Sequence record: NC_072811.1
DNA length: 42,858 bases
From: Escherichia phage Halfdan
Direction: 5' to 3' (one strand)
Shown: positions 3,187 to 27,001 of the stretch, one piece after another
Numbering within the stretch: the first letter of the stretch is position 1
How the letters are laid out: every line of letters starts with the position of its first letter
Notes under the pieces: model-generated
What the model was told of the DNA's origin: nothing
What the model saw: only the letters and a program-made list of their open reading frames with translations
The model's database searches: none
Program-made: the position numbers and the translations under genes

Positions 3187-3623
3187 TAGCGGAACCCCCA
3201 AACGTCGATAATGCGATGCGTTACCGGAACTTGCACAATTCCGACCGGATGCAAACAGGCAAACGCCTTATTGCGGTAGAACACACCCAAGCCGCAACGT
3301 TGGTCTACGCGACCTTTGCCGACGGATGCGCGGGGCCATTGAATGCAAACAACGTCGCCGTCTTTGGCTTCGGATAGGTCAATGATTCGACCGCCGACAG
3401 GCTTAACCAACGTTTCGAATACTTCCCGAACGACGACCGTTCCGAAGGTATCGTTAAGCATCATTGCGCAAGTTGATTCGTCCTTATAAGTCCGAATATC
3501 GCGCATAACGTCAACACCGGTTGCGATTTCGATAGCGCCAGCGGCAAAGGTGCAACAATCGAACTTGCCCCATTCGAAACGCTGTTCGGCGCATTCCGCC
3601 ATGTATTCGTGAATGTCTTTCAT
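3186..3623 (-). CDS. tail-associated protein, possible NlpC/P60-like cysteine peptidase
   Basis: 145 aa from ATG 3621-3623; FDCCTFAAG cysteine motif with downstream His; TAATG stop-start coupling on both sides. Confidence 0.3.
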   Translation of the reverse strand: MKDIHEYMAECAEQRFEWGKFDCCTFAAGAIEIATGVDVMRDIRTYKDESTCAMMLNDTFGTVVVREVFETLVKPVGGRIIDLSEAKDGDVVCIQWPRASVGKGRVDQRCGLGVFYRNKAFACLHPVGIVQVPVTHRIIDVWGFR

Positions 3624-20656: not shown

Positions 20657-22276
20657 TTATGATGGTCGAACAAGTTTAATTGCGGTTGCGGCCCGGTTGT
20701 TGCCAGCAAGGACGCGGTAACGTACTTCGTCGTAAACGTGGTCTTCGGAATCCGTATCCACGTCGTCGAGTATTTTAGAGTCGCGGGGCAATGTGGGCAA
20801 TATCGAAATAGCGGCCCGGCAACAGTCCATAATATACAACCCTTTGTGTTCACCGGTCGAAGTTGCTTCTAACCGTTCGCGCACAAGTTCAAGGCCGATT
20901 TTACGACTACCCGGCGATTTATCCGATTCAGTCCAGCGGATACCGACCGACGACATTTTCTTTTCGATGGTTTCCGTTTCATCGTCCGTAACGTTTCGAA
21001 TCTGGTTATCCGCTGGCCCCGGCCACGGTTGCGACTGAATCCAGCCGTTAGTCATTAATGCGATTTCAATATCGCGGATACCTTCCGCCACTTTACGCGA
21101 CGACATTTTAAGACCCTTGTTCGTTCCGATTTCCTTTGTACCGTACCATTCGAATATGCGAACAAGCGAACCAGCGGGCGGGCAAAACTTCTTCGTCGTT
21201 CCGTCGGGAAATACGATAGTCGCTTCTTCGCCGTTAGCTTCGGCCCACCAGCCAACCGAAAACGGATGCGACGAACCCCAGTCGAAAGACCGGTCGATTC
21301 GCCAACTTTTCGGAACAACGAACCGGGGAACGATAACGGTTTGTTTATTCCAAACGTCGTCGAGTGCGCCGCCTGCGACGATATCCCAATCGCCAAGCAA
21401 CCACGCTTTACGGCGGTTTTCGTCTTTTTCGCTATTCAGTTCGGCAACGTATTCGGGAGAAAGATAAATGTTTTCGACATACGAACCGAAGATAGCGACT
21501 TGCGTTTTCGTAACGGTAATTTCTTTCTTGGTCTTCGGGTCGAATACTTCGACGCTGTTTTCGACCATAGTTCCGTAAGGTGCCGGGTCGATAAACCGAC
21601 GCTTAACCCAATTATGGCCCGCGCCGTATGGGTTGCAAGTGCTGAACACTTCCAACGGAATCGGCGGGATTTCGTAAACCGGGCCTTCTTCAACGAAGAT
21701 AATTTCGCCTGTCGCTTCGTAATGGTCGCCGTCAATACACGGTGAATCTTTTTCAGGCGTAAACGAACTACGGTTCGTTGACATCATCATATTGTAAAGT
21801 TCGCCGGTTGGATATTTCGTTAATTCGTTCCAACCGATAAACGGGAATTCTTGGCCGTGATAGTTCCAATAATCGTCGGGATTCTTTGCGACGCGAAACA
21901 ACAGTTCTTCGCCGGTCGGCCAAACCCATTTAAGCGACGAAGCCGATTCAAGAAACTTTGCGCCGTCTTTGAATGCGTAAAACCAACGTTTCGACTTGTT
22001 GATTAAGTCGTCAAGGTTCTTATATTCGCGGTCGAATATGACGCCACGCCAGAACACGCCATAGCCCAAACCGACGCGACGACGAAATCGCATTAGCTGG
22101 GTATCGGTCTTTCCGGGGCCGCGTGCGCCAGTGTATAGGGTATGATGTGCCCGCGTATCTAACGCCAGTTCTTGCGACGTATCCGGTATCGGTTGCCAAA
22201 TTACGTTGGCGTTTTCCGGCGTCCAAATGATGCGTTCGGGCGAATCCGGGTTAGTGTTTGGTAGTATTAGCGACAT
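20657..22276 (-). CDS. terL: terminase large subunit
   Basis: 539 aa; Walker-A-like GARGPGKT near N-terminus; C-terminal nuclease-sized domain. Confidence 0.85.
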   Translation of the reverse strand: MSLILPNTNPDSPERIIWTPENANVIWQPIPDTSQELALDTRAHHTLYTGARGPGKTDTQLMRFRRRVGLGYGVFWRGVIFDREYKNLDDLINKSKRWFYAFKDGAKFLESASSLKWVWPTGEELLFRVAKNPDDYWNYHGQEFPFIGWNELTKYPTGELYNMMMSTNRSSFTPEKDSPCIDGDHYEATGEIIFVEEGPVYEIPPIPLEVFSTCNPYGAGHNWVKRRFIDPAPYGTMVENSVEVFDPKTKKEITVTKTQVAIFGSYVENIYLSPEYVAELNSEKDENRRKAWLLGDWDIVAGGALDDVWNKQTVIVPRFVVPKSWRIDRSFDWGSSHPFSVGWWAEANGEEATIVFPDGTTKKFCPPAGSLVRIFEWYGTKEIGTNKGLKMSSRKVAEGIRDIEIALMTNGWIQSQPWPGPADNQIRNVTDDETETIEKKMSSVGIRWTESDKSPGSRKIGLELVRERLEATSTGEHKGLYIMDCCRAAISILPTLPRDSKILDDVDTDSEDHVYDEVRYRVLAGNNRAATAIKLVRPS

Positions 22277-22721
22277 ATCGACCGTTCACCAATTCGCGCT
22301 GTTGCTTTGCGACCTTCTGCGCCCATTCGTCGTTAGTGCCGTGGTCTTTAACGACCATGACACGCGGGGCCGCGTCAACGTTGATATTCGTTGTCGTATT
22401 CGCTTTGGGGTCGTAGATACCGGCAACCGCGCCGTACTTTTCAGCGGCGGCGATTCGGTCTTTAGGGTCGATTTTTTCGTTATTCGCCAAATCCCAATAG
22501 AAGCGGGCAAGGTCGAATTTCGACGCAATGGCTTGAACGTTCTTCGCGTCCGACCGAAGCCGGTTCATTTCTGCGATAACGTCTTCGTCGTTCGCCCAAT
22601 TGGTCGCATACCATAGGGCTTGGCCCGTGTTGTCCGGGCATAGCAGGCAAGCGGCCTTGAACGGGTCGCGTTCCTGTAAAAGAAAAGCCGCATAAGCGGC
22701 CTTCGATTTCGTGTCTTCCAT
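22251..22721 (-). CDS. putative terminase small subunit
   Basis: 156 aa from ATG 22719-22721 (TAAGG SD); 3' end overlaps terL start; call by position. Confidence 0.4.
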   Translation of the reverse strand: MEDTKSKAAYAAFLLQERDPFKAACLLCPDNTGQALWYATNWANDEDVIAEMNRLRSDAKNVQAIASKFDLARFYWDLANNEKIDPKDRIAAAEKYGAVAGIYDPKANTTTNINVDAAPRVMVVKDHGTNDEWAQKVAKQQRELVNGRYVANTTKH

Positions 22722-22782
22722 ATCGGGCGGCCTTACTGTTAATCGAACTTGGTTCAATCATAATACAGCCGCCCGATATAGT

Positions 22783-23019
22783 CTATTTCTTTGACTTCCG
22801 GGGGTCGCCGCAATTCTTTACGAACGTTTCGTTATGCGATAAGATTTGCCGCGCCGTTCCATCCGTGATTACGTCGTCTTTCGACACGTAAATCGGCTGA
22901 ACCCATTTGCAAGCGGTATCAACCGTTACGACTTTCGGCGATTCAATCCCGCGACCATTCGTCGCGCAACTTGTTAGCAGCATCGCCGGGATTAAGACGG
23001 TTAATATCCGCTTGAACAT
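22783..23019 (-). CDS. o-spanin (outer-membrane lipoprotein)
   Basis: 78 aa; signal peptide with lipobox LLTSC; embedded out of frame in the 3' end of the i-spanin gene. Confidence 0.6.
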   Translation of the reverse strand: MFKRILTVLIPAMLLTSCATNGRGIESPKVVTVDTACKWVQPIYVSKDDVITDGTARQILSHNETFVKNCGDPRKSKK

Positions 23020-23227
23020 CGTTAGCCCCTTTAACTGATTCAGTTACTTGTTCGACCGTCGCTTTCGCTTCGGCTACCGCTTCGGCGGCTTTGTCTTCGG
23101 CGTGTTTCGTTTCCGCTTCCGACTTACCGGCTTTCTTACCGCCAAAGTACAGACCAAGCGCACCAGCAATCGCGCCAATGATGCCCACAATCCAAGGCCC
23201 GAAGTCGCCTAACAGTGCTGTAATCAT
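22943..23227 (-). CDS. i-spanin
   Basis: 94 aa; N-terminal TM helix then charged helical region; directly downstream of endolysin. Confidence 0.55.
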   Translation of the reverse strand: MITALLGDFGPWIVGIIGAIAGALGLYFGGKKAGKSEAETKHAEDKAAEAVAEAKATVEQVTESVKGANDVQADINRLNPGDAANKLRDEWSRD

Positions 23228-23238
23228 TTCGGCCGCCT

Positions 23239-23793
23239 TTACTTGAAAACGCGCTGTTGCCAGCCGTTCGAAAAGTCTTCTTGCGATTGGTCACGTTCCG
23301 ACAGTTCCATAAGGAACACCGACCGTTGCGCCTTAACCATTTCGGCCAGATACGCAAGCCCGGCACCCCCGCGCTTCGCTGCGAAGCCGTCAAGTGCGCC
23401 GAAGGTAATACGGCCTAAGCCGCCGTCGGGGTCGATATCGGGATAGTCCTTGCCTTGTCGATTCAGGGTATTCAACGCCCGTTGCATTGCGCGAACGGCG
23501 CGGCTTGGCCCGCTATTAACGCCCCAATCGAACAGCACTTCGGCCAGTACCGGCGACCGGTCGTTAATCTGGTCGAACTTCGGGGCCAACCAAAAGCGTT
23601 CGCGGTAGATTGCGAAGGCTTGGTCGTAAGTCATATCGCGGATATCGCCAGTATAACCGAACGCCTTTGCGGTCGTTGCGGTAATGCCCCACTTGGTAGG
23701 GCCGCCCTTGTCGTTCGGTAAGTTGGTGTATTTGTCCCAACCTTCCGCCCGCATTACGGCATCAATTCGGGTTTTTAGTTCCGTCGGTTGCAT
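23239..23793 (-). CDS. endolysin (GH108 lysozyme-like domain plus peptidoglycan-binding domain)
   Basis: 184 aa; AEGW...NDKGGPTKWGIT and DWGVNSG...DPDGGLGRITFGAL motifs; strong AAAGGAG SD. Confidence 0.8.
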   Translation of the reverse strand: MQPTELKTRIDAVMRAEGWDKYTNLPNDKGGPTKWGITATTAKAFGYTGDIRDMTYDQAFAIYRERFWLAPKFDQINDRSPVLAEVLFDWGVNSGPSRAVRAMQRALNTLNRQGKDYPDIDPDGGLGRITFGALDGFAAKRGGAGLAYLAEMVKAQRSVFLMELSERDQSQEDFSNGWQQRVFK

Positions 23794-24103
23794 TGTCGGT
23801 TACTCCTTTCGGTTCCGGCCGCTGTTGCTTAATCAACCGGGCCACCAGCGACAGCACGAACACGCCGACGCCGATAAGTGGAACGTACTGTTCGGGAATA
23901 GCGGCCTTCAAATCCGACGGTAACAGGTTCCACGCATACAACGCCGCATCGGGAAATGCGACAAGTACGCCAGTTAATGCCGTTCCGATGATTCCAAGCC
24001 GTACCGACCAGAACCGCCAGAACAAACGCCAATCGTCGATAAGTTCGACCTTAACGCGGTTTATCATTGCTCCAACCCTTCCGTAAAAGTTCGTCATTTG
24101 CAT
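23762..24103 (-). CDS. holin (two TM segments, possible dual start)
   Basis: 113 aa with in-frame ATGs at 24103, 24097 and 24067; two hydrophobic helices; overlaps endolysin start. Confidence 0.6.
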   Translation of the reverse strand: MQMTNFYGRVGAMINRVKVELIDDWRLFWRFWSVRLGIIGTALTGVLVAFPDAALYAWNLLPSDLKAAIPEQYVPLIGVGVFVLSLVARLIKQQRPEPKGVTDNATDGTKNPN

Positions 24104-24494
24104 TAATCGCCTTCAACTGGTATTCAAGCGCCAGAATCCGACGGTCGGCCGCGTTATCGGCCGCTTGCAAATTCTGAATCGTGGAATACGAAAAACCAAC
24201 AAGGCCGGTACAGGCTAACAGTACCGCCCCGGTAATCTTCCAAATGGTCGAATGCGATTGTAATTTCTGGCCGTGAACCGTCGTAACGTCACCTTGCGCC
24301 GAAAGGGCTTTAAATAACCGGTCGGTCTTTGCGTCCAACACTGCGATATCTTTCTGAATCACGGCGAATTGCTGAATAGCGGTATTTTGTGCGATAACCA
24401 TTCCGCGCAATTCTTGGTAATCGTCAAGTACACGACCGATTCGTTCGTATAAAACCGCCAATTCTGGCGACGTAACGTTGTCGTTTTCGGCCAT
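24051..24494 (-). CDS. membrane protein with coiled-coil regions
   Basis: 147 aa from ATG 24492-24494 (GGAAAGGTGG SD); central TM segment ITGAVLLACTGLVGF; immediately upstream of holin. Confidence 0.4.
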   Translation of the reverse strand: MAENDNVTSPELAVLYERIGRVLDDYQELRGMVIAQNTAIQQFAVIQKDIAVLDAKTDRLFKALSAQGDVTTVHGQKLQSHSTIWKITGAVLLACTGLVGFSYSTIQNLQAADNAADRRILALEYQLKAINANDELLRKGWSNDKPR

Positions 24495-24576
24495 GTTTCG
24501 CCACCTTTCCAAGTCGTATTATCCGAAATTAAACGCATTCAATGTCGGATAGCATAACGCAAGATTGACGGACACG

Positions 24577-24610
24577 CAAAGAAAAGCCCCCGGACGCGAT
24601 GCCGGGGGCT
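24577..24610 (-). terminator. rho-independent terminator after gene 24655..25257
   Basis: 9-bp GC-rich stem (24585-24593 / 24602-24610), 8-nt loop, followed on the minus strand by UUUCUUUG; a second hairpin lies at 24614-24631. Confidence 0.65.
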
Positions 24611-24654
24611 TTAATGGGGCCGTCATTGGCCCCGGTTGCTACGGGGTTGCGGCG

Positions 24655-25257
24655 TTACAGGGTACGCCACACGCCCGCGCCCTTGACGCCGGGGAAGCCC
24701 CACGGTGCGCCGTCTTCGACGGTGCGAACGGCGAATTCGCGAATCTGGCGGGTAGCCGGAACGACGTTGCCTTTCGCCGGGGATTTCTTCGGCGCGGGGA
24801 TTTCTTCGGCGTAACGTTCGTTGGCGCTGGTGACAGTGGAAGCCAGCGACTTCGCCGGGTTCGGCTTGGCTTCGGTCGCGGCCACGAAGAACGATTGCCC
24901 TTTTTCCAGCTTGTCGAACGGGTAAGTTTCGGTCGAACGGCCGCCACGGGAAGCGCCCGGCATGGCAACGTCGGCGACAATTGCGAAGTTCGATGCGACG
25001 GCCGGTGCGGCGGAAGCGCCTTCGGTGCCGGTGTTCTGGTTGGTGTTCTGTTCGTTCATAGCTGCGATGCCCTTTTCGGTTGCACGGGTAGCGAAGTCGC
25101 CCCCTTCGTTGGTGATGGTTTCGTTCTGTTCGACCAGACCTTCGGCGACCAGAACTTTCGCGGCCTTGGCGGAAGCGAAGGCGTAACCGGCGTCGCCGGT
25201 AGTTGCGGTAACGATGGCGGCCAGCAGTTCCGAAGCCGCTTTGTTCAGTTTAGCCAT
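24655..25257 (-). CDS. hypothetical protein, independently transcribed
   Basis: 200 aa from ATG 25255-25257 with AAGGAG SD; own TTGACG-N17-TAGAAT promoter and downstream hairpin terminator. Confidence 0.55.
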   Translation of the reverse strand: MAKLNKAASELLAAIVTATTGDAGYAFASAKAAKVLVAEGLVEQNETITNEGGDFATRATEKGIAAMNEQNTNQNTGTEGASAAPAVASNFAIVADVAMPGASRGGRSTETYPFDKLEKGQSFFVAATEAKPNPAKSLASTVTSANERYAEEIPAPKKSPAKGNVVPATRQIREFAVRTVEDGAPWGFPGVKGAGVWRTL

Positions 25258-25325
25258 TTTGAAAACTCCTTGCAAGTAAGTTCTTCGTTTGTCCCCGACG
25301 AACCATTCGGCGGGGTACGTGTTGA

Positions 25326-26139: not shown

Positions 26140-26597
26140 TCTTCGCCCCTTGTTACGATAAGTTTAACGCCCGCTTCTTTGAACATCGAAACGGCAATAT
26201 CTAAGTGTTCGTCGTATGCAAGCCGGTTGCCCACATATTCAGCGACGACGCGTTTAACGCCGCTTTGAATGATGGCCCCGGCGCAAACCGGGCACGGCGT
26301 CAACGGCGTTACGAACAGCGTACAACCGACAAGCGATTCGCGGCTGTTTAGTATAGCGTTCAATTCGGCGTGTACGGTGCGCGGGTACTTCTGCGCCCGG
26401 TCGTTCAACCGGGATTCAGTATCGGCCACGCCACGCGGAAAGCCGTTGTAACCGAACGATACCGGGCTGTTATCCGGCCGTGCAATGAACGCACCAACCT
26501 TCGTCGAAGGGTCTTTCGATTTGGTGCGAACAGTGCGGGCCAACGACAGGTAGAACCGTTCCCATTCGGTAAGGTCTTCGTACCGACGTTCAATCAT
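26136..26597 (-). CDS. dCMP deaminase (cytidine/deoxycytidylate deaminase family)
   Basis: 153 aa; zinc-binding HAE and PCxxC motifs (VHAELNAI, TPCPVCAGAI). Confidence 0.8.
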   Translation of the reverse strand: MIERRYEDLTEWERFYLSLARTVRTKSKDPSTKVGAFIARPDNSPVSFGYNGFPRGVADTESRLNDRAQKYPRTVHAELNAILNSRESLVGCTLFVTPLTPCPVCAGAIIQSGVKRVVAEYVGNRLAYDEHLDIAVSMFKEAGVKLIVTRGEE

Positions 26598-27001
26598 CGT
26601 TTCGACTCCTTTTCGTTGTCCAGATACAACAACGCTTCGTGTCGGTCAATCTTGCCGGTCGCGTCGCAGAAGTCGCAGTCGAACCAGTCGCCGGGGCTAA
26701 TTTCGACGCCCTGTACGCCTTTGCATTTCGGGCACGTTACGGCTTCGGCTTCGTGTGAGTAATCCGGCCCGTAAAAGTTCTTGATTACGTCGTCAGGGTT
26801 GCCGCCTGCGGCCATGTAACCGCGTGCGTATTGTGCGGCATCCGTAACCGGCATGTAACCGTCGCAGATTGCGCAAGTTACCTTTTGGCCTAACTGATAC
26901 GGCGGCGGGCCAACGTCGAACAGATGGCGCGGGCACGCGTCCAGCTTGCGGCGGTTTTCCTTGATAGCGGCGAACAGTGCGGCCGATTCTTGCTTGTTCA
27001 T
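26594..27001 (-). CDS. cysteine-rich zinc-ribbon protein
   Basis: 135 aa; three CxxC(x)G motifs (CAICDG, CPKCKG, CDFCDATG). Confidence 0.45.
   Translation of the reverse strand: MNKQESAALFAAIKENRRKLDACPRHLFDVGPPPYQLGQKVTCAICDGYMPVTDAAQYARGYMAAGGNPDDVIKNFYGPDYSHEAEAVTCPKCKGVQGVEISPGDWFDCDFCDATGKIDRHEALLYLDNEKESKR

What the first reader, a model, noticed from the sequence alone, without database searches (positions are those of the whole stretch)
22783..24494. Lysis cassette upstream of the packaging genes, with an extra membrane coiled-coil protein
Order on the minus strand is membrane coiled-coil protein (24051..24494), holin with three in-frame ATGs (possible holin/antiholin dual start), GH108-type endolysin, i-spanin, and an o-spanin embedded in the i-spanin 3' end. 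The extra membrane protein directly upstream of the holin could act as an antiholin or lysis-timing regulator.
Basis: partly seen in the sequence, partly recalled or inferred. Interest (0 to 1): 0.35.

Follow-up and report, generated by a model that had tools for sequence, protein, structure and literature searches.

The report
Phage lysis cassette with holin partner
This is the ordinary five-gene cell-bursting module of coliphage Halfdan, but its first gene encodes an uncharacterised single-pass coiled-coil membrane protein that always travels with the holin gene and is probably a second subunit or regulator of the membrane hole that times lysis.

Summary
The window is the whole genome of Escherichia phage Halfdan (42,858 bp). 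The cassette is real: on the minus strand lie a 147-aa protein (p147), a DUF7940 class II holin, a GH108 endolysin, an i-spanin and an o-spanin, then TerS and TerL.

Two details need correcting. The o-spanin gene overlaps the i-spanin gene rather than lying embedded in it. The holin's first two ATGs are not conserved; the family N-terminus corresponds to the third ATG (24067).

p147 belongs to a small uncharacterised family (PHROG 26164, no Pfam). It has a heptad-patterned N-terminal helix, one marginally hydrophobic transmembrane segment and a short conserved C-terminal helix.

In 17 of 18 loci carrying this family, a clear DUF7940 gene follows directly, usually overlapping it. The eighteenth has a divergent DUF7940-like ORF. 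Five endolysin types follow this pair.

In other phages the same slot holds a LydA-type holin or an N-terminal-TM coiled-coil protein.

A lysis role is therefore well supported by context. Whether p147 inhibits or promotes hole formation is not decided. The closest tested analogue, XhlA/XhlB of PBSX and gp24.1/gp26 of SPP1, is a cooperative two-part holin, but p147 shows no sequence homology to XhlA. No experiments exist. Interest is modest.

The parts
24575..24612 (-). GC-rich hairpin followed by a T-run (intrinsic-terminator-like). It lies between the DUF7303 gene and p147, so it marks the upstream boundary of the lysis/late gene block.
   Evidence: Fold of 24555-24640(-): -38.8 kcal/mol, z -3.4, stem AAAGCCCCCGG/CCGGGGGCUUU followed by UCUUU. 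The position is conserved in 8 phages with different stem sequences. The consensus scanner did not list it.
24051..24494 (-). p147: a 147-aa predicted single-pass membrane protein. It has an N-terminal heptad helix (about residues 10-66), a transmembrane segment (about 83-103) and a C-terminal helix with invariant R119 and E124. It is the first gene of the cassette and the proposed holin partner.
   Evidence: phrog_26164, E 7e-17; no Pfam or NCBIfam match. 45 representative homologues among 1.84 billion proteins. Alignment A2. Hydropathy, heptad and uncharged-run analyses. AlphaFold2 helices 10-66 and 70-143. Shine-Dalgarno GGAAAGGTGG.
23762..24067 (-). Class II (two-TM) holin of family DUF7940, 101 aa from the conserved start ATG 24067. 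The ORF extends upstream to ATGs at 24097 and 24103. Its start lies 17 nt inside the end of p147.
   Evidence: PF25612, 81.8 bits; phrog_1356 'holin', E 2.3e-26. Two hydrophobic peaks, KD19 1.64 and 2.15, and a charged C-terminal tail. Family N-termini align to M13.
23239..23793 (-). Soluble endolysin, GH108 catalytic domain plus PG_binding_3, with no N-terminal signal or SAR segment. It overlaps the holin 3' end by 32 nt.
   Evidence: PF05838, E 2.5e-23; PF09374, E 2.1e-12; phrog_315. No hydrophobic window.
22943..23227 (-). i-spanin, 94 aa: N-terminal transmembrane segment followed by a charged helical periplasmic domain.
   Evidence: phrog_1026 'Rz-like spanin', E 7.2e-20. Transmembrane segment at residues 1-31.
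22783..23019 (-). o-spanin, 78 aa: lipoprotein signal peptide with lipobox LTS|C (Cys18). The gene overlaps the i-spanin gene by 77 nt and extends 160 nt beyond it (overlapped architecture).
   Evidence: phrog_1275, E 2.5e-26; weak Pfam LysC (Rz1-like), E 0.02. Sequence and Shine-Dalgarno AAAGGGG.
22251..22757 (-). Small terminase subunit (context). Packaging genes follow the cassette directly. The annotated start in the Juelich variant corresponds to 22721.
   Evidence: phrog_5334, E 1.4e-40; annotation of PP954860.
24655..25257 (-). DUF7303 protein (context). This is the last gene before the terminator-like hairpin and is syntenic upstream of the cassette in several relatives.
   Evidence: PF23978, E 1.2e-57. 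Same position in L013, L016 and L017.

Best explanation
The region is the multigene lysis cassette of phage Halfdan.

The inferred sequence of events is as follows. The DUF7940 two-TM holin accumulates in the inner membrane and opens holes. The soluble GH108 endolysin passes through and cuts the cell wall. The overlapped i-spanin/o-spanin pair then disrupts the outer membrane.

p147 is a dedicated partner of the holin. Its gene overlaps the holin start, so the two are probably translationally coupled. It is anchored by one transmembrane helix. Its roughly 85-residue coiled-coil domain probably faces the cytoplasm, and its conserved D-x-x-x-D-R-R-x-x-x-x-L-E helix probably lies on the periplasmic side.

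My commitment is that p147 works as the second subunit of a two-part holin, like XhlA with XhlB in PBSX. In this model its coiled coil oligomerises and clusters transmembrane helices, which helps or times the lethal assembly of the holin. It is therefore more likely a positive or timing co-factor than a pure inhibitor.

Shown here: the gene identities, the architecture, and the strict linkage between p147 and the holin gene. Inferred: the topology, the physical interaction with the holin, and the direction of the effect.
For: - Family matches for the holin, endolysin, spanins and TerS.
- The p147 family is followed by a clear DUF7940 gene in 17 of 18 loci (alignment gap -19 to +135 nt). The eighteenth (L015) has a divergent DUF7940-like ORF: Pfam E 0.0025, hhalign probability 69%.
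- The pair recurs with GH108, amidase, GH24, CHAP and PF11860 muramidase endolysins, and on different phage backbones.
- 10 of 11 endolysins paired with p147-type partners have no N-terminal hydrophobic segment, so large holes are needed.
- The slot upstream of DUF7940 is filled in other phages by a LydA-type holin (PF16083, E 2.7e-23; LPPA15, JC1, L025/L026). In Ebordelon it is filled by a protein with an N-terminal coiled coil and a C-terminal TM, exactly the XhlA architecture.
- PBSX XhlA/XhlB and SPP1 gp24.1/gp26 have the same architecture: a coiled-coil single-TM protein plus a two-TM holin. PBSX also has the same gene order (both holin genes before the endolysin); in SPP1 the two genes flank the endolysin gene. 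Neither protein alone is harmful, and the two together are lethal (PMC6316719; PMC6834076).
- phiKZ provides a Gram-negative precedent for a fifth cassette gene that accelerates holin lethality (PMC12894885).
- Heptad pattern, transmembrane segment and AlphaFold2 helices.
Against: - There is no experiment on any member of the p147 or DUF7940 families.
- p147 has no detectable sequence homology to XhlA. hhalign against SPP1 gp24.1 gives probability 4.6%, and XhlA is not among the 25 Pfam families most often matched by the 37 family members scanned. The analogy is therefore architectural only.
- DUF7940 holins exist without any such partner: three-TM forms in L035-L039, and Ralstonia phage Simangalove. 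The holin can therefore probably work alone, which fits an accessory regulator, including an antiholin, as well as or better than an obligate subunit.
- The partner slot is filled by three unrelated protein types, which is typical of replaceable regulators.
- The transmembrane segment is only marginally hydrophobic (KD19 1.56; family range 0.93-2.17).
- Positive-inside evidence for the N-in topology is weak: 21 members favour it, 8 oppose it and 8 are tied.
Confidence: 0.42

Rival explanations
1. p147 is an antiholin. It binds the DUF7940 holin in the membrane and delays hole formation until a trigger, setting the lysis clock.
For: - Separately encoded antiholins sit next to their holin genes, for example P1 lydA-lydB.
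- The partner slot is evolutionarily replaceable, with three unrelated types.
- DUF7940 occurs without a partner in some phages, as expected if the partner is an accessory regulator.
- The JC1 authors proposed a holin/antiholin pair for LydA plus DUF7940 (PMC9144972).
Against: - p147 has no homology to LydB (hhalign probability 0.6%).
- None of the antiholins considered here (P1 LydB, whose sequence was read; T4 RI and RIII, P2 LysA and lambda S107 from my own knowledge) has this coiled-coil single-TM architecture, whereas the cooperative XhlA/gp24.1 proteins do.
- The slot can hold a bona fide holin family, LydA.
Confidence: 0.3
2. The roles are reversed. p147 (or whatever fills the slot) is the true hole-former, and the DUF7940 protein is the regulator or antiholin.
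For: - The slot holds a LydA-type holin in LPPA15, JC1 and L025/L026.
- Xanthomonas phage records call the p147 homologue 'putative holin'.
- Pfam still lists DUF7940 as of unknown function.
- The JC1 paper suggests that the DUF7940 gene is the antiholin.
Against: - In L035-L039 and Simangalove, DUF7940 is the only holin candidate between the endolysin and the spanins.
- DUF7940 has the classic small two-TM, charged-tail holin form.
- p147's single transmembrane segment is weakly hydrophobic.
Confidence: 0.13
3. p147 is a late membrane protein unrelated to lysis, for example a superinfection-exclusion or assembly factor, and sits beside the holin gene by genomic accident.
For: There is no functional annotation or experimental data. 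It is the first gene after a terminator-like hairpin, so its position could simply reflect operon structure.
Against: Linkage to DUF7940 survives changes of endolysin type, of downstream genes (Serratia phage Rovert, L014, L015) and of phage backbone, with overlapping reading frames.
Confidence: 0.1

Closest known systems
PBSX XhlA/XhlB and SPP1 gp24.1/gp26 (two-part holins of Bacillus phages)
   Same: A small protein with a cytoplasmic coiled coil and one transmembrane helix is encoded next to a two-TM holin and an endolysin. In PBSX the gene order (accessory, holin, endolysin) is the same as here. The two proteins cooperate to kill (PMC6316719).
   Different: There is no sequence homology: p147 against gp24.1 gives hhalign probability 4.6%. 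The holin here is DUF7940, not Holin_SPP1. p147 is longer, with a roughly 45-residue conserved tail after the transmembrane segment. The host is Gram-negative and spanins are present. In SPP1 the two genes flank the endolysin gene.
Phage P1 LydA/LydB (holin and separately encoded antiholin)
   Same: Two adjacent, overlapping genes for membrane proteins govern lysis timing. A LydA-type holin actually occupies the p147 slot in some DUF7940 phages.
   Different: LydB is downstream of its holin, has an N-terminal transmembrane segment and a non-helical domain, and is unrelated to p147. P1 uses a SAR endolysin.
phiKZ gp143 lysis regulator
   Same: It is a fifth gene in a Gram-negative lysis cassette and modulates holin timing, in this case accelerating it, through the holin's cytoplasmic domain (PMC12894885).
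   Different: gp143 is a soluble cytoplasmic protein and the holin is class III. No homology was tested or expected.
Lambda S107/S105 dual-start holin/antiholin
   Same: The Halfdan holin ORF has extra in-frame ATGs upstream of the main start, and the first has a plausible Shine-Dalgarno sequence.
   Different: The extra ATGs are 10-12 codons upstream and lie within the p147 coding sequence. They are absent or different in relatives, so a conserved dual-start motif is not present.
Annotated relatives: Halfdan_Juelich_variant, phage Shy, Pseudomonas phage Pavpe01, Lokivirus
   Same: Same cassette at 74-98% DNA identity. The holin, endolysin and spanins are already annotated.
   Different: p147 is 'hypothetical protein' in those records, or is mis-named (hppA sodium pump in Pavpe01).

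Membership tests
XhlA (Pfam PF10779) | Sequence match to the XhlA profile or to a verified member | tested here: not met
   p147 itself has no XhlA hit at E <= 1, and XhlA is not among the 25 Pfam families most often matched by the 37 family members scanned. hhalign of A2 against SPP1 gp24.1 (itself PF10779, E 3.9e-14) gives probability 4.6%.
XhlA (Pfam PF10779) | Architecture: N-terminal coiled coil plus a single transmembrane helix towards the C-terminus, encoded upstream of a two-TM holin and an endolysin | tested here: met
   Heptad helix 10-66, transmembrane segment about 83-103, gene order p147-holin-endolysin. p147 has an extra tail of about 45 residues.
XhlA (Pfam PF10779) | Needed together with the holin for lethality or lysis | not testable with these tools
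   Requires expression or deletion experiments.
Antiholin (functional class) | Delays holin triggering; its loss gives early lysis | not testable with these tools
   No experimental data found for this family.
Antiholin (functional class) | Homology to a known separately encoded antiholin (P1 LydB) | tested here: not met
   hhalign probability 0.6%.
Dual-start holin/antiholin (lambda S type) | Two conserved in-frame starts a few codons apart, giving products that differ by N-terminal charge | tested here: not met
   ATGs at 24103, 24097 and 24067 exist. Relatives start at the position of the third ATG and lack conserved upstream ATGs.
DUF7940 / phrog_1356 holin | Profile match above the curated threshold | tested here: met
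   PF25612, 81.8 bits (cut-off 27); phrog_1356, E 2.3e-26.
DUF7940 / phrog_1356 holin | Small size, at least one transmembrane domain, charged C-terminal tail, adjacency to an endolysin gene | tested here: met
   Two hydrophobic peaks, tail RLIKQQRPEPKGVTD..., overlaps the endolysin gene.
DUF7940 / phrog_1356 holin | Demonstrated hole formation | not testable with these tools
   No publication mentions DUF7940 or PF25612. The function is an annotation inference.
GH108 endolysin | Glyco_hydro_108 catalytic domain plus PG_binding_3 domain | tested here: met
   E 2.5e-23 and E 2.1e-12.
Two-component spanin (Rz/Rz1 type) | i-spanin with an N-terminal transmembrane segment and a helical periplasmic domain; o-spanin lipoprotein with a lipobox; the two genes overlapping | tested here: met
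   phrog_1026, E 7e-20; phrog_1275, E 2.5e-26; lipobox LTSC at Cys18; 77-nt overlap, i.e. the 'overlapped' class.
PHROG 26164 (uncharacterised) | Profile match | tested here: met
   E 7e-17, covering residues 2-134 of p147 against profile positions 2-134 of 137.

The most novel reading that the evidence does not exclude
Many Gram-negative siphophages may use a two-part holin in which the two-TM DUF7940 protein needs, or is clocked by, a co-translated single-pass coiled-coil partner. This would be a convergent counterpart of Bacillus XhlA/XhlB. The partner slot would be interchangeable among at least three unrelated protein types: the p147 family, N-terminal-TM coiled-coil proteins, and LydA-type holins.
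Probability: 0.35. Interest if true: 0.55.

Novelty: new variant of a known kind. Interest (0 to 1): 0.36.

Why it matters
Holin timing sets phage burst size and fitness, yet nearly all mechanistic knowledge comes from a few model holins. Here a holin family found in at least 185 sequenced phages of Pseudomonas, Klebsiella, Serratia, Xanthomonas, Acinetobacter and E. coli is regularly paired with an unstudied membrane partner.

Halfdan grows on E. coli K-12, so the question of co-holin versus antiholin could be answered with standard genetics. If the partner is required, heterologous use of these holins and annotation of these cassettes would both need it.

If it proves to be only a modest timing modulator, the finding remains a routine lysis cassette.

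Tried and rejected
- **Homology of p147 to P1 LydB:** none.
- **Homology to XhlA / SPP1 gp24.1:** none. Only Nazgul gp40 gives a sub-threshold XhlA hit, E 0.014.
- **Conserved dual-start in the holin:** rejected.
- **'Embedded' o-spanin:** rejected; the gene is overlapped.
- **Sigma-70 promoter between the hairpin and p147:** the scanner lists none there and my manual candidates were weak. The late promoter is therefore not located.
- **Lambda Q-like antiterminator** (suggested for Loki gp45 in PMC5313236): the Halfdan counterpart (26594..27001) gives only sub-threshold DnaJ zinc-finger hits and no solved-structure match.
- **The search for related loci:** it failed with the broad alignments A2 and A4 and found only 2 viral-contig loci with A3.
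- **Rfam and tRNA scans of the region:** nothing above threshold.
- **NCBIfam:** nothing for p147 or the holin.
- **Structure search:** not run, because a two-helix model would give meaningless matches.
Full report
**Identity of the window.** A megablast of 22200-25300 finds Escherichia phage Halfdan_Juelich_variant (97.3% identity) and phage Shy (98.3%). The original Halfdan genome is listed as MH362766, 42,858 bp, which is exactly the window length (PMC7552041). The window is therefore the whole genome of a Lokivirus-related siphophage. No paper found discusses its lysis genes.

**The observation.** All five minus-strand ORFs are present. Their family matches are strong.

| Gene | Coordinates | Best matches |
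|---|---|---|
| Holin | 23762..24103 | DUF7940, 81.8 bits (cut-off 27); phrog_1356 'holin', E 2.3e-26 |
| Endolysin | 23239..23793 | GH108, E 2.5e-23; PG_binding_3, E 2.1e-12 |
| i-spanin | 22943..23227 | phrog_1026, E 7e-20 |
| o-spanin | 22783..23019 | phrog_1275, E 2.5e-26 |
| TerS | 22251..22757 | phrog_5334, E 1.4e-40 |

TerL follows TerS.

- The endolysin has no hydrophobic N-terminus. It is therefore a soluble enzyme that needs a large-hole holin. That requirement is established knowledge of canonical holin-endolysin systems.
- The o-spanin has a lipoprotein signal peptide ending in LTS|C. Its gene starts 77 nt before the i-spanin stop and runs 160 nt beyond it. This is the 'overlapped' class, not the 'embedded' class.
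- Each gene has a Shine-Dalgarno sequence.

**The holin start.** ATGs occur at 24103, 24097 and 24067. The first (GAAGG, 6-nt spacing) and the third (GGAAGGG, 8-nt spacing) have plausible ribosome-binding sites. In nine relatives the protein begins 5-7 residues before the conserved ELIDDWR motif, at the position of the third ATG. Upstream in-frame ATGs are absent or non-homologous in those relatives. A conserved dual-start holin/antiholin motif is therefore not supported. The likely product is 101 aa. Its start lies 17 nt inside the end of p147, as in Pavpe01.

**What p147 is.** It matches only the uncharacterised phrog_26164 (E 7e-17). It has no Pfam or NCBIfam family.

- An exhaustive phmmer search of 1.84 billion representatives finds just 45 relatives at E <= 0.001. 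Apart from three long repetitive proteins with multi-stretch partial matches, they are 107-207 aa long.
- The alignment of 37 members shows an N-terminal AVLxERV motif, then H-x-x-x-W-K before a hydrophobic segment, G-L-x-G-W within it, and a following D...RR...LE helix. R119 and E124 are invariant.
- The hydrophobic segment is marginal: KD19 is 1.56 in Halfdan, with a family median of 1.55. It coincides with a conserved uncharged run of median 23 residues, which equals the 95th percentile of shuffled sequences.
- Residues 10-66 carry a heptad pattern. The a/d core-hydrophobic fraction is 0.75 against 0.53 in shuffles (P 0.0055).
- AlphaFold2 from the single sequence gives two helices, 10-66 and 70-143, with mean pLDDT 75.6.
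- Charge flanking the transmembrane segment weakly favours the N-terminus inside: 21 members favour it, 8 oppose it and 8 are tied.
- Against Pavpe01, 61 codons changed synonymously and 29 non-synonymously. The ORF is a real gene under purifying selection.

**Linkage to the holin.** tblastn finds p147 homologues at 24-30% identity in Xanthomonas, Achromobacter, Serratia and Acinetobacter phages. In each, the gene lies immediately upstream of the holin and endolysin genes.

Metagenomic contigs show the same arrangement. Across all loci, the endolysin that follows is of five types:

- GH108
- amidase
- GH24 lysozyme, in this case with a SAR-like N-terminus
- CHAP
- PF11860 muramidase

The surrounding backbones also differ.

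I searched all fetched loci with HMMs built from the two families. This gave 18 loci with p147-family hits. In 17 of them a DUF7940 hit begins between -19 and +135 nt from the end of the p147 alignment. The eighteenth (L015) has an uncalled, divergent DUF7940-like ORF: Pfam E 0.0025, hhalign probability 69%.

The reverse does not hold. DUF7940 occurs in 185 phage records, against 23 for p147.

**The partner slot.** In other phages the gene directly upstream of DUF7940 falls into several types.

- **N-terminal-TM coiled-coil protein.** This is an 84-93-aa protein in Septimatrevirus and relatives (phrog_462). BcepNazgul gp40 is similar.
- **XhlA-like layout.** Ebordelon has a 110-aa protein with an N-terminal coiled coil and a C-terminal TM.
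- **LydA-type holin.** PF16083, E 2.7e-23, in LPPA15, JC1 and L025/L026. In KpF5 and L040-L043 the order is LydA-endolysin-DUF7940.
- **No partner.** Three-TM DUF7940 forms directly follow the endolysin gene in L035-L039. Simangalove also lacks a partner.

So the two-TM DUF7940 holin usually has a second membrane protein encoded beside it, and that protein's identity is interchangeable.

**Comparison with known systems.**

- P1 LydB, the classical separately encoded antiholin, is unrelated to p147.
- The closest tested architecture is PBSX XhlA/XhlB and SPP1 gp24.1/gp26. Each pairs a coiled-coil protein carrying a C-terminal TM with a two-TM holin. Neither protein alone is harmful, and together they kill at once (PMC6316719; PMC6834076).
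- p147 has no sequence similarity to XhlA-family proteins, and DUF7940 is not Holin_SPP1. Membership fails and only the working analogy stands.
- phiKZ shows that a fifth cassette gene in a Gram-negative phage can accelerate holin action (PMC12894885).
- The JC1 authors guessed that the DUF7940 gene there is an antiholin, without experiments (PMC9144972).

**Verdict on mechanism.** That p147 belongs to the lysis system is well supported, at about 0.85 summed over the readings below. The direction of its effect is open.

| Reading | Confidence |
|---|---|
| Cooperative or timing partner (two-part holin) | 0.42 |
| Antiholin | 0.30 |
| Reversed roles | 0.13 |
| Unrelated function | 0.10 |

- For the cooperative reading: the XhlA-like design, the oligomerising coiled coil, and a true holin family occupying the same slot.
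- For the antiholin reading: the partner is replaceable, and DUF7940 can occur alone.

**Context.** A GC-rich hairpin with a T-run lies between the DUF7303 gene and p147 (24612..24575). It is conserved in position in eight phages with differing stem sequences, whatever the partner type. p147 is therefore the first gene after a probable terminator, at the head of the lysis, packaging and structural block. No promoter could be placed.

**Novelty and interest.** The cassette itself is already annotated in relatives and is ordinary. The partner family and the interchangeable slot have not been described in any paper I could find. I rate this a new variant of a known kind, namely accessory holin partners, with modest interest (0.36).

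Noticed in passing
window 24575..24612 (minus); A6 alignment of 8 phages: The terminator-like hairpin upstream of the first lysis gene is conserved in position across Halfdan, Pavpe01, Langgrundblatt2, phiAxp-1, LPPA15, UF_RH5 and two metagenomic contigs. The stem sequences differ but remain complementary. This suggests a regulated boundary (termination or antitermination) before the late genes.
   Followed up: partly
window 23239..23793 against L001 4202..4756: Between Halfdan and the Juelich variant the endolysin gene differs at 67 nt (44 synonymous and 12 non-synonymous codon changes). p147, the holin, both spanins and TerS differ at 0-2 nt. This indicates a recombinational exchange limited to the endolysin gene.
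   Followed up: partly
L002 3501..3932; L022 1669..2001; L008 2244..2498; L004 ~3395..3620; L001 5012..5212: Probable annotation errors in public records. The Pavpe01 p147 homologue is named 'hppA K(+)-stimulated pyrophosphate-energized sodium pump'. The Ebordelon partner is named 'tape measure protein'. The Septimatrevirus partner is named 'lipoprotein' although it has no cysteine. The phiAxp-1 holin ORF is unannotated. The Juelich o-spanin start is truncated to MLLTSC (66 aa), whereas the 78-aa ORF carries a full signal peptide.
   Followed up: partly
window 24519..24626 (minus): A 35-aa ORF annotated as a hypothetical protein in the Juelich variant lies directly over the terminator hairpin and is probably not a gene.
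   Followed up: no
L035-L039, L019, L010 against two-TM forms: DUF7940 holins come in two-TM and three-TM versions, the latter with an extra N-terminal helix. Several three-TM versions lack any upstream partner, whereas nearly all two-TM versions seen have one. The correlation is imperfect: KpF5 and Nazgul have both the extra helix and a partner.
   Followed up: partly
L034 1483..2694: One viral contig has a DUF7940 holin domain at the N-terminus of a 403-aa ORF with a long C-terminal extension. This would be an unusual holin fusion if it is not a sequencing or frame artefact.
   Followed up: no
window 24655..25257 (minus): A DUF7303 protein (E 1.2e-57) of unknown function is conserved immediately upstream of the lysis block in several related phages and contigs.
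   Followed up: no
window 26594..27001 (minus): This is the counterpart of Loki gp45, which its authors likened to lambda Q antiterminator. Here it gives only sub-threshold DnaJ CXXCXGXG zinc-finger hits, so an antitermination role before the lysis genes remains an untested lead.
   Followed up: partly
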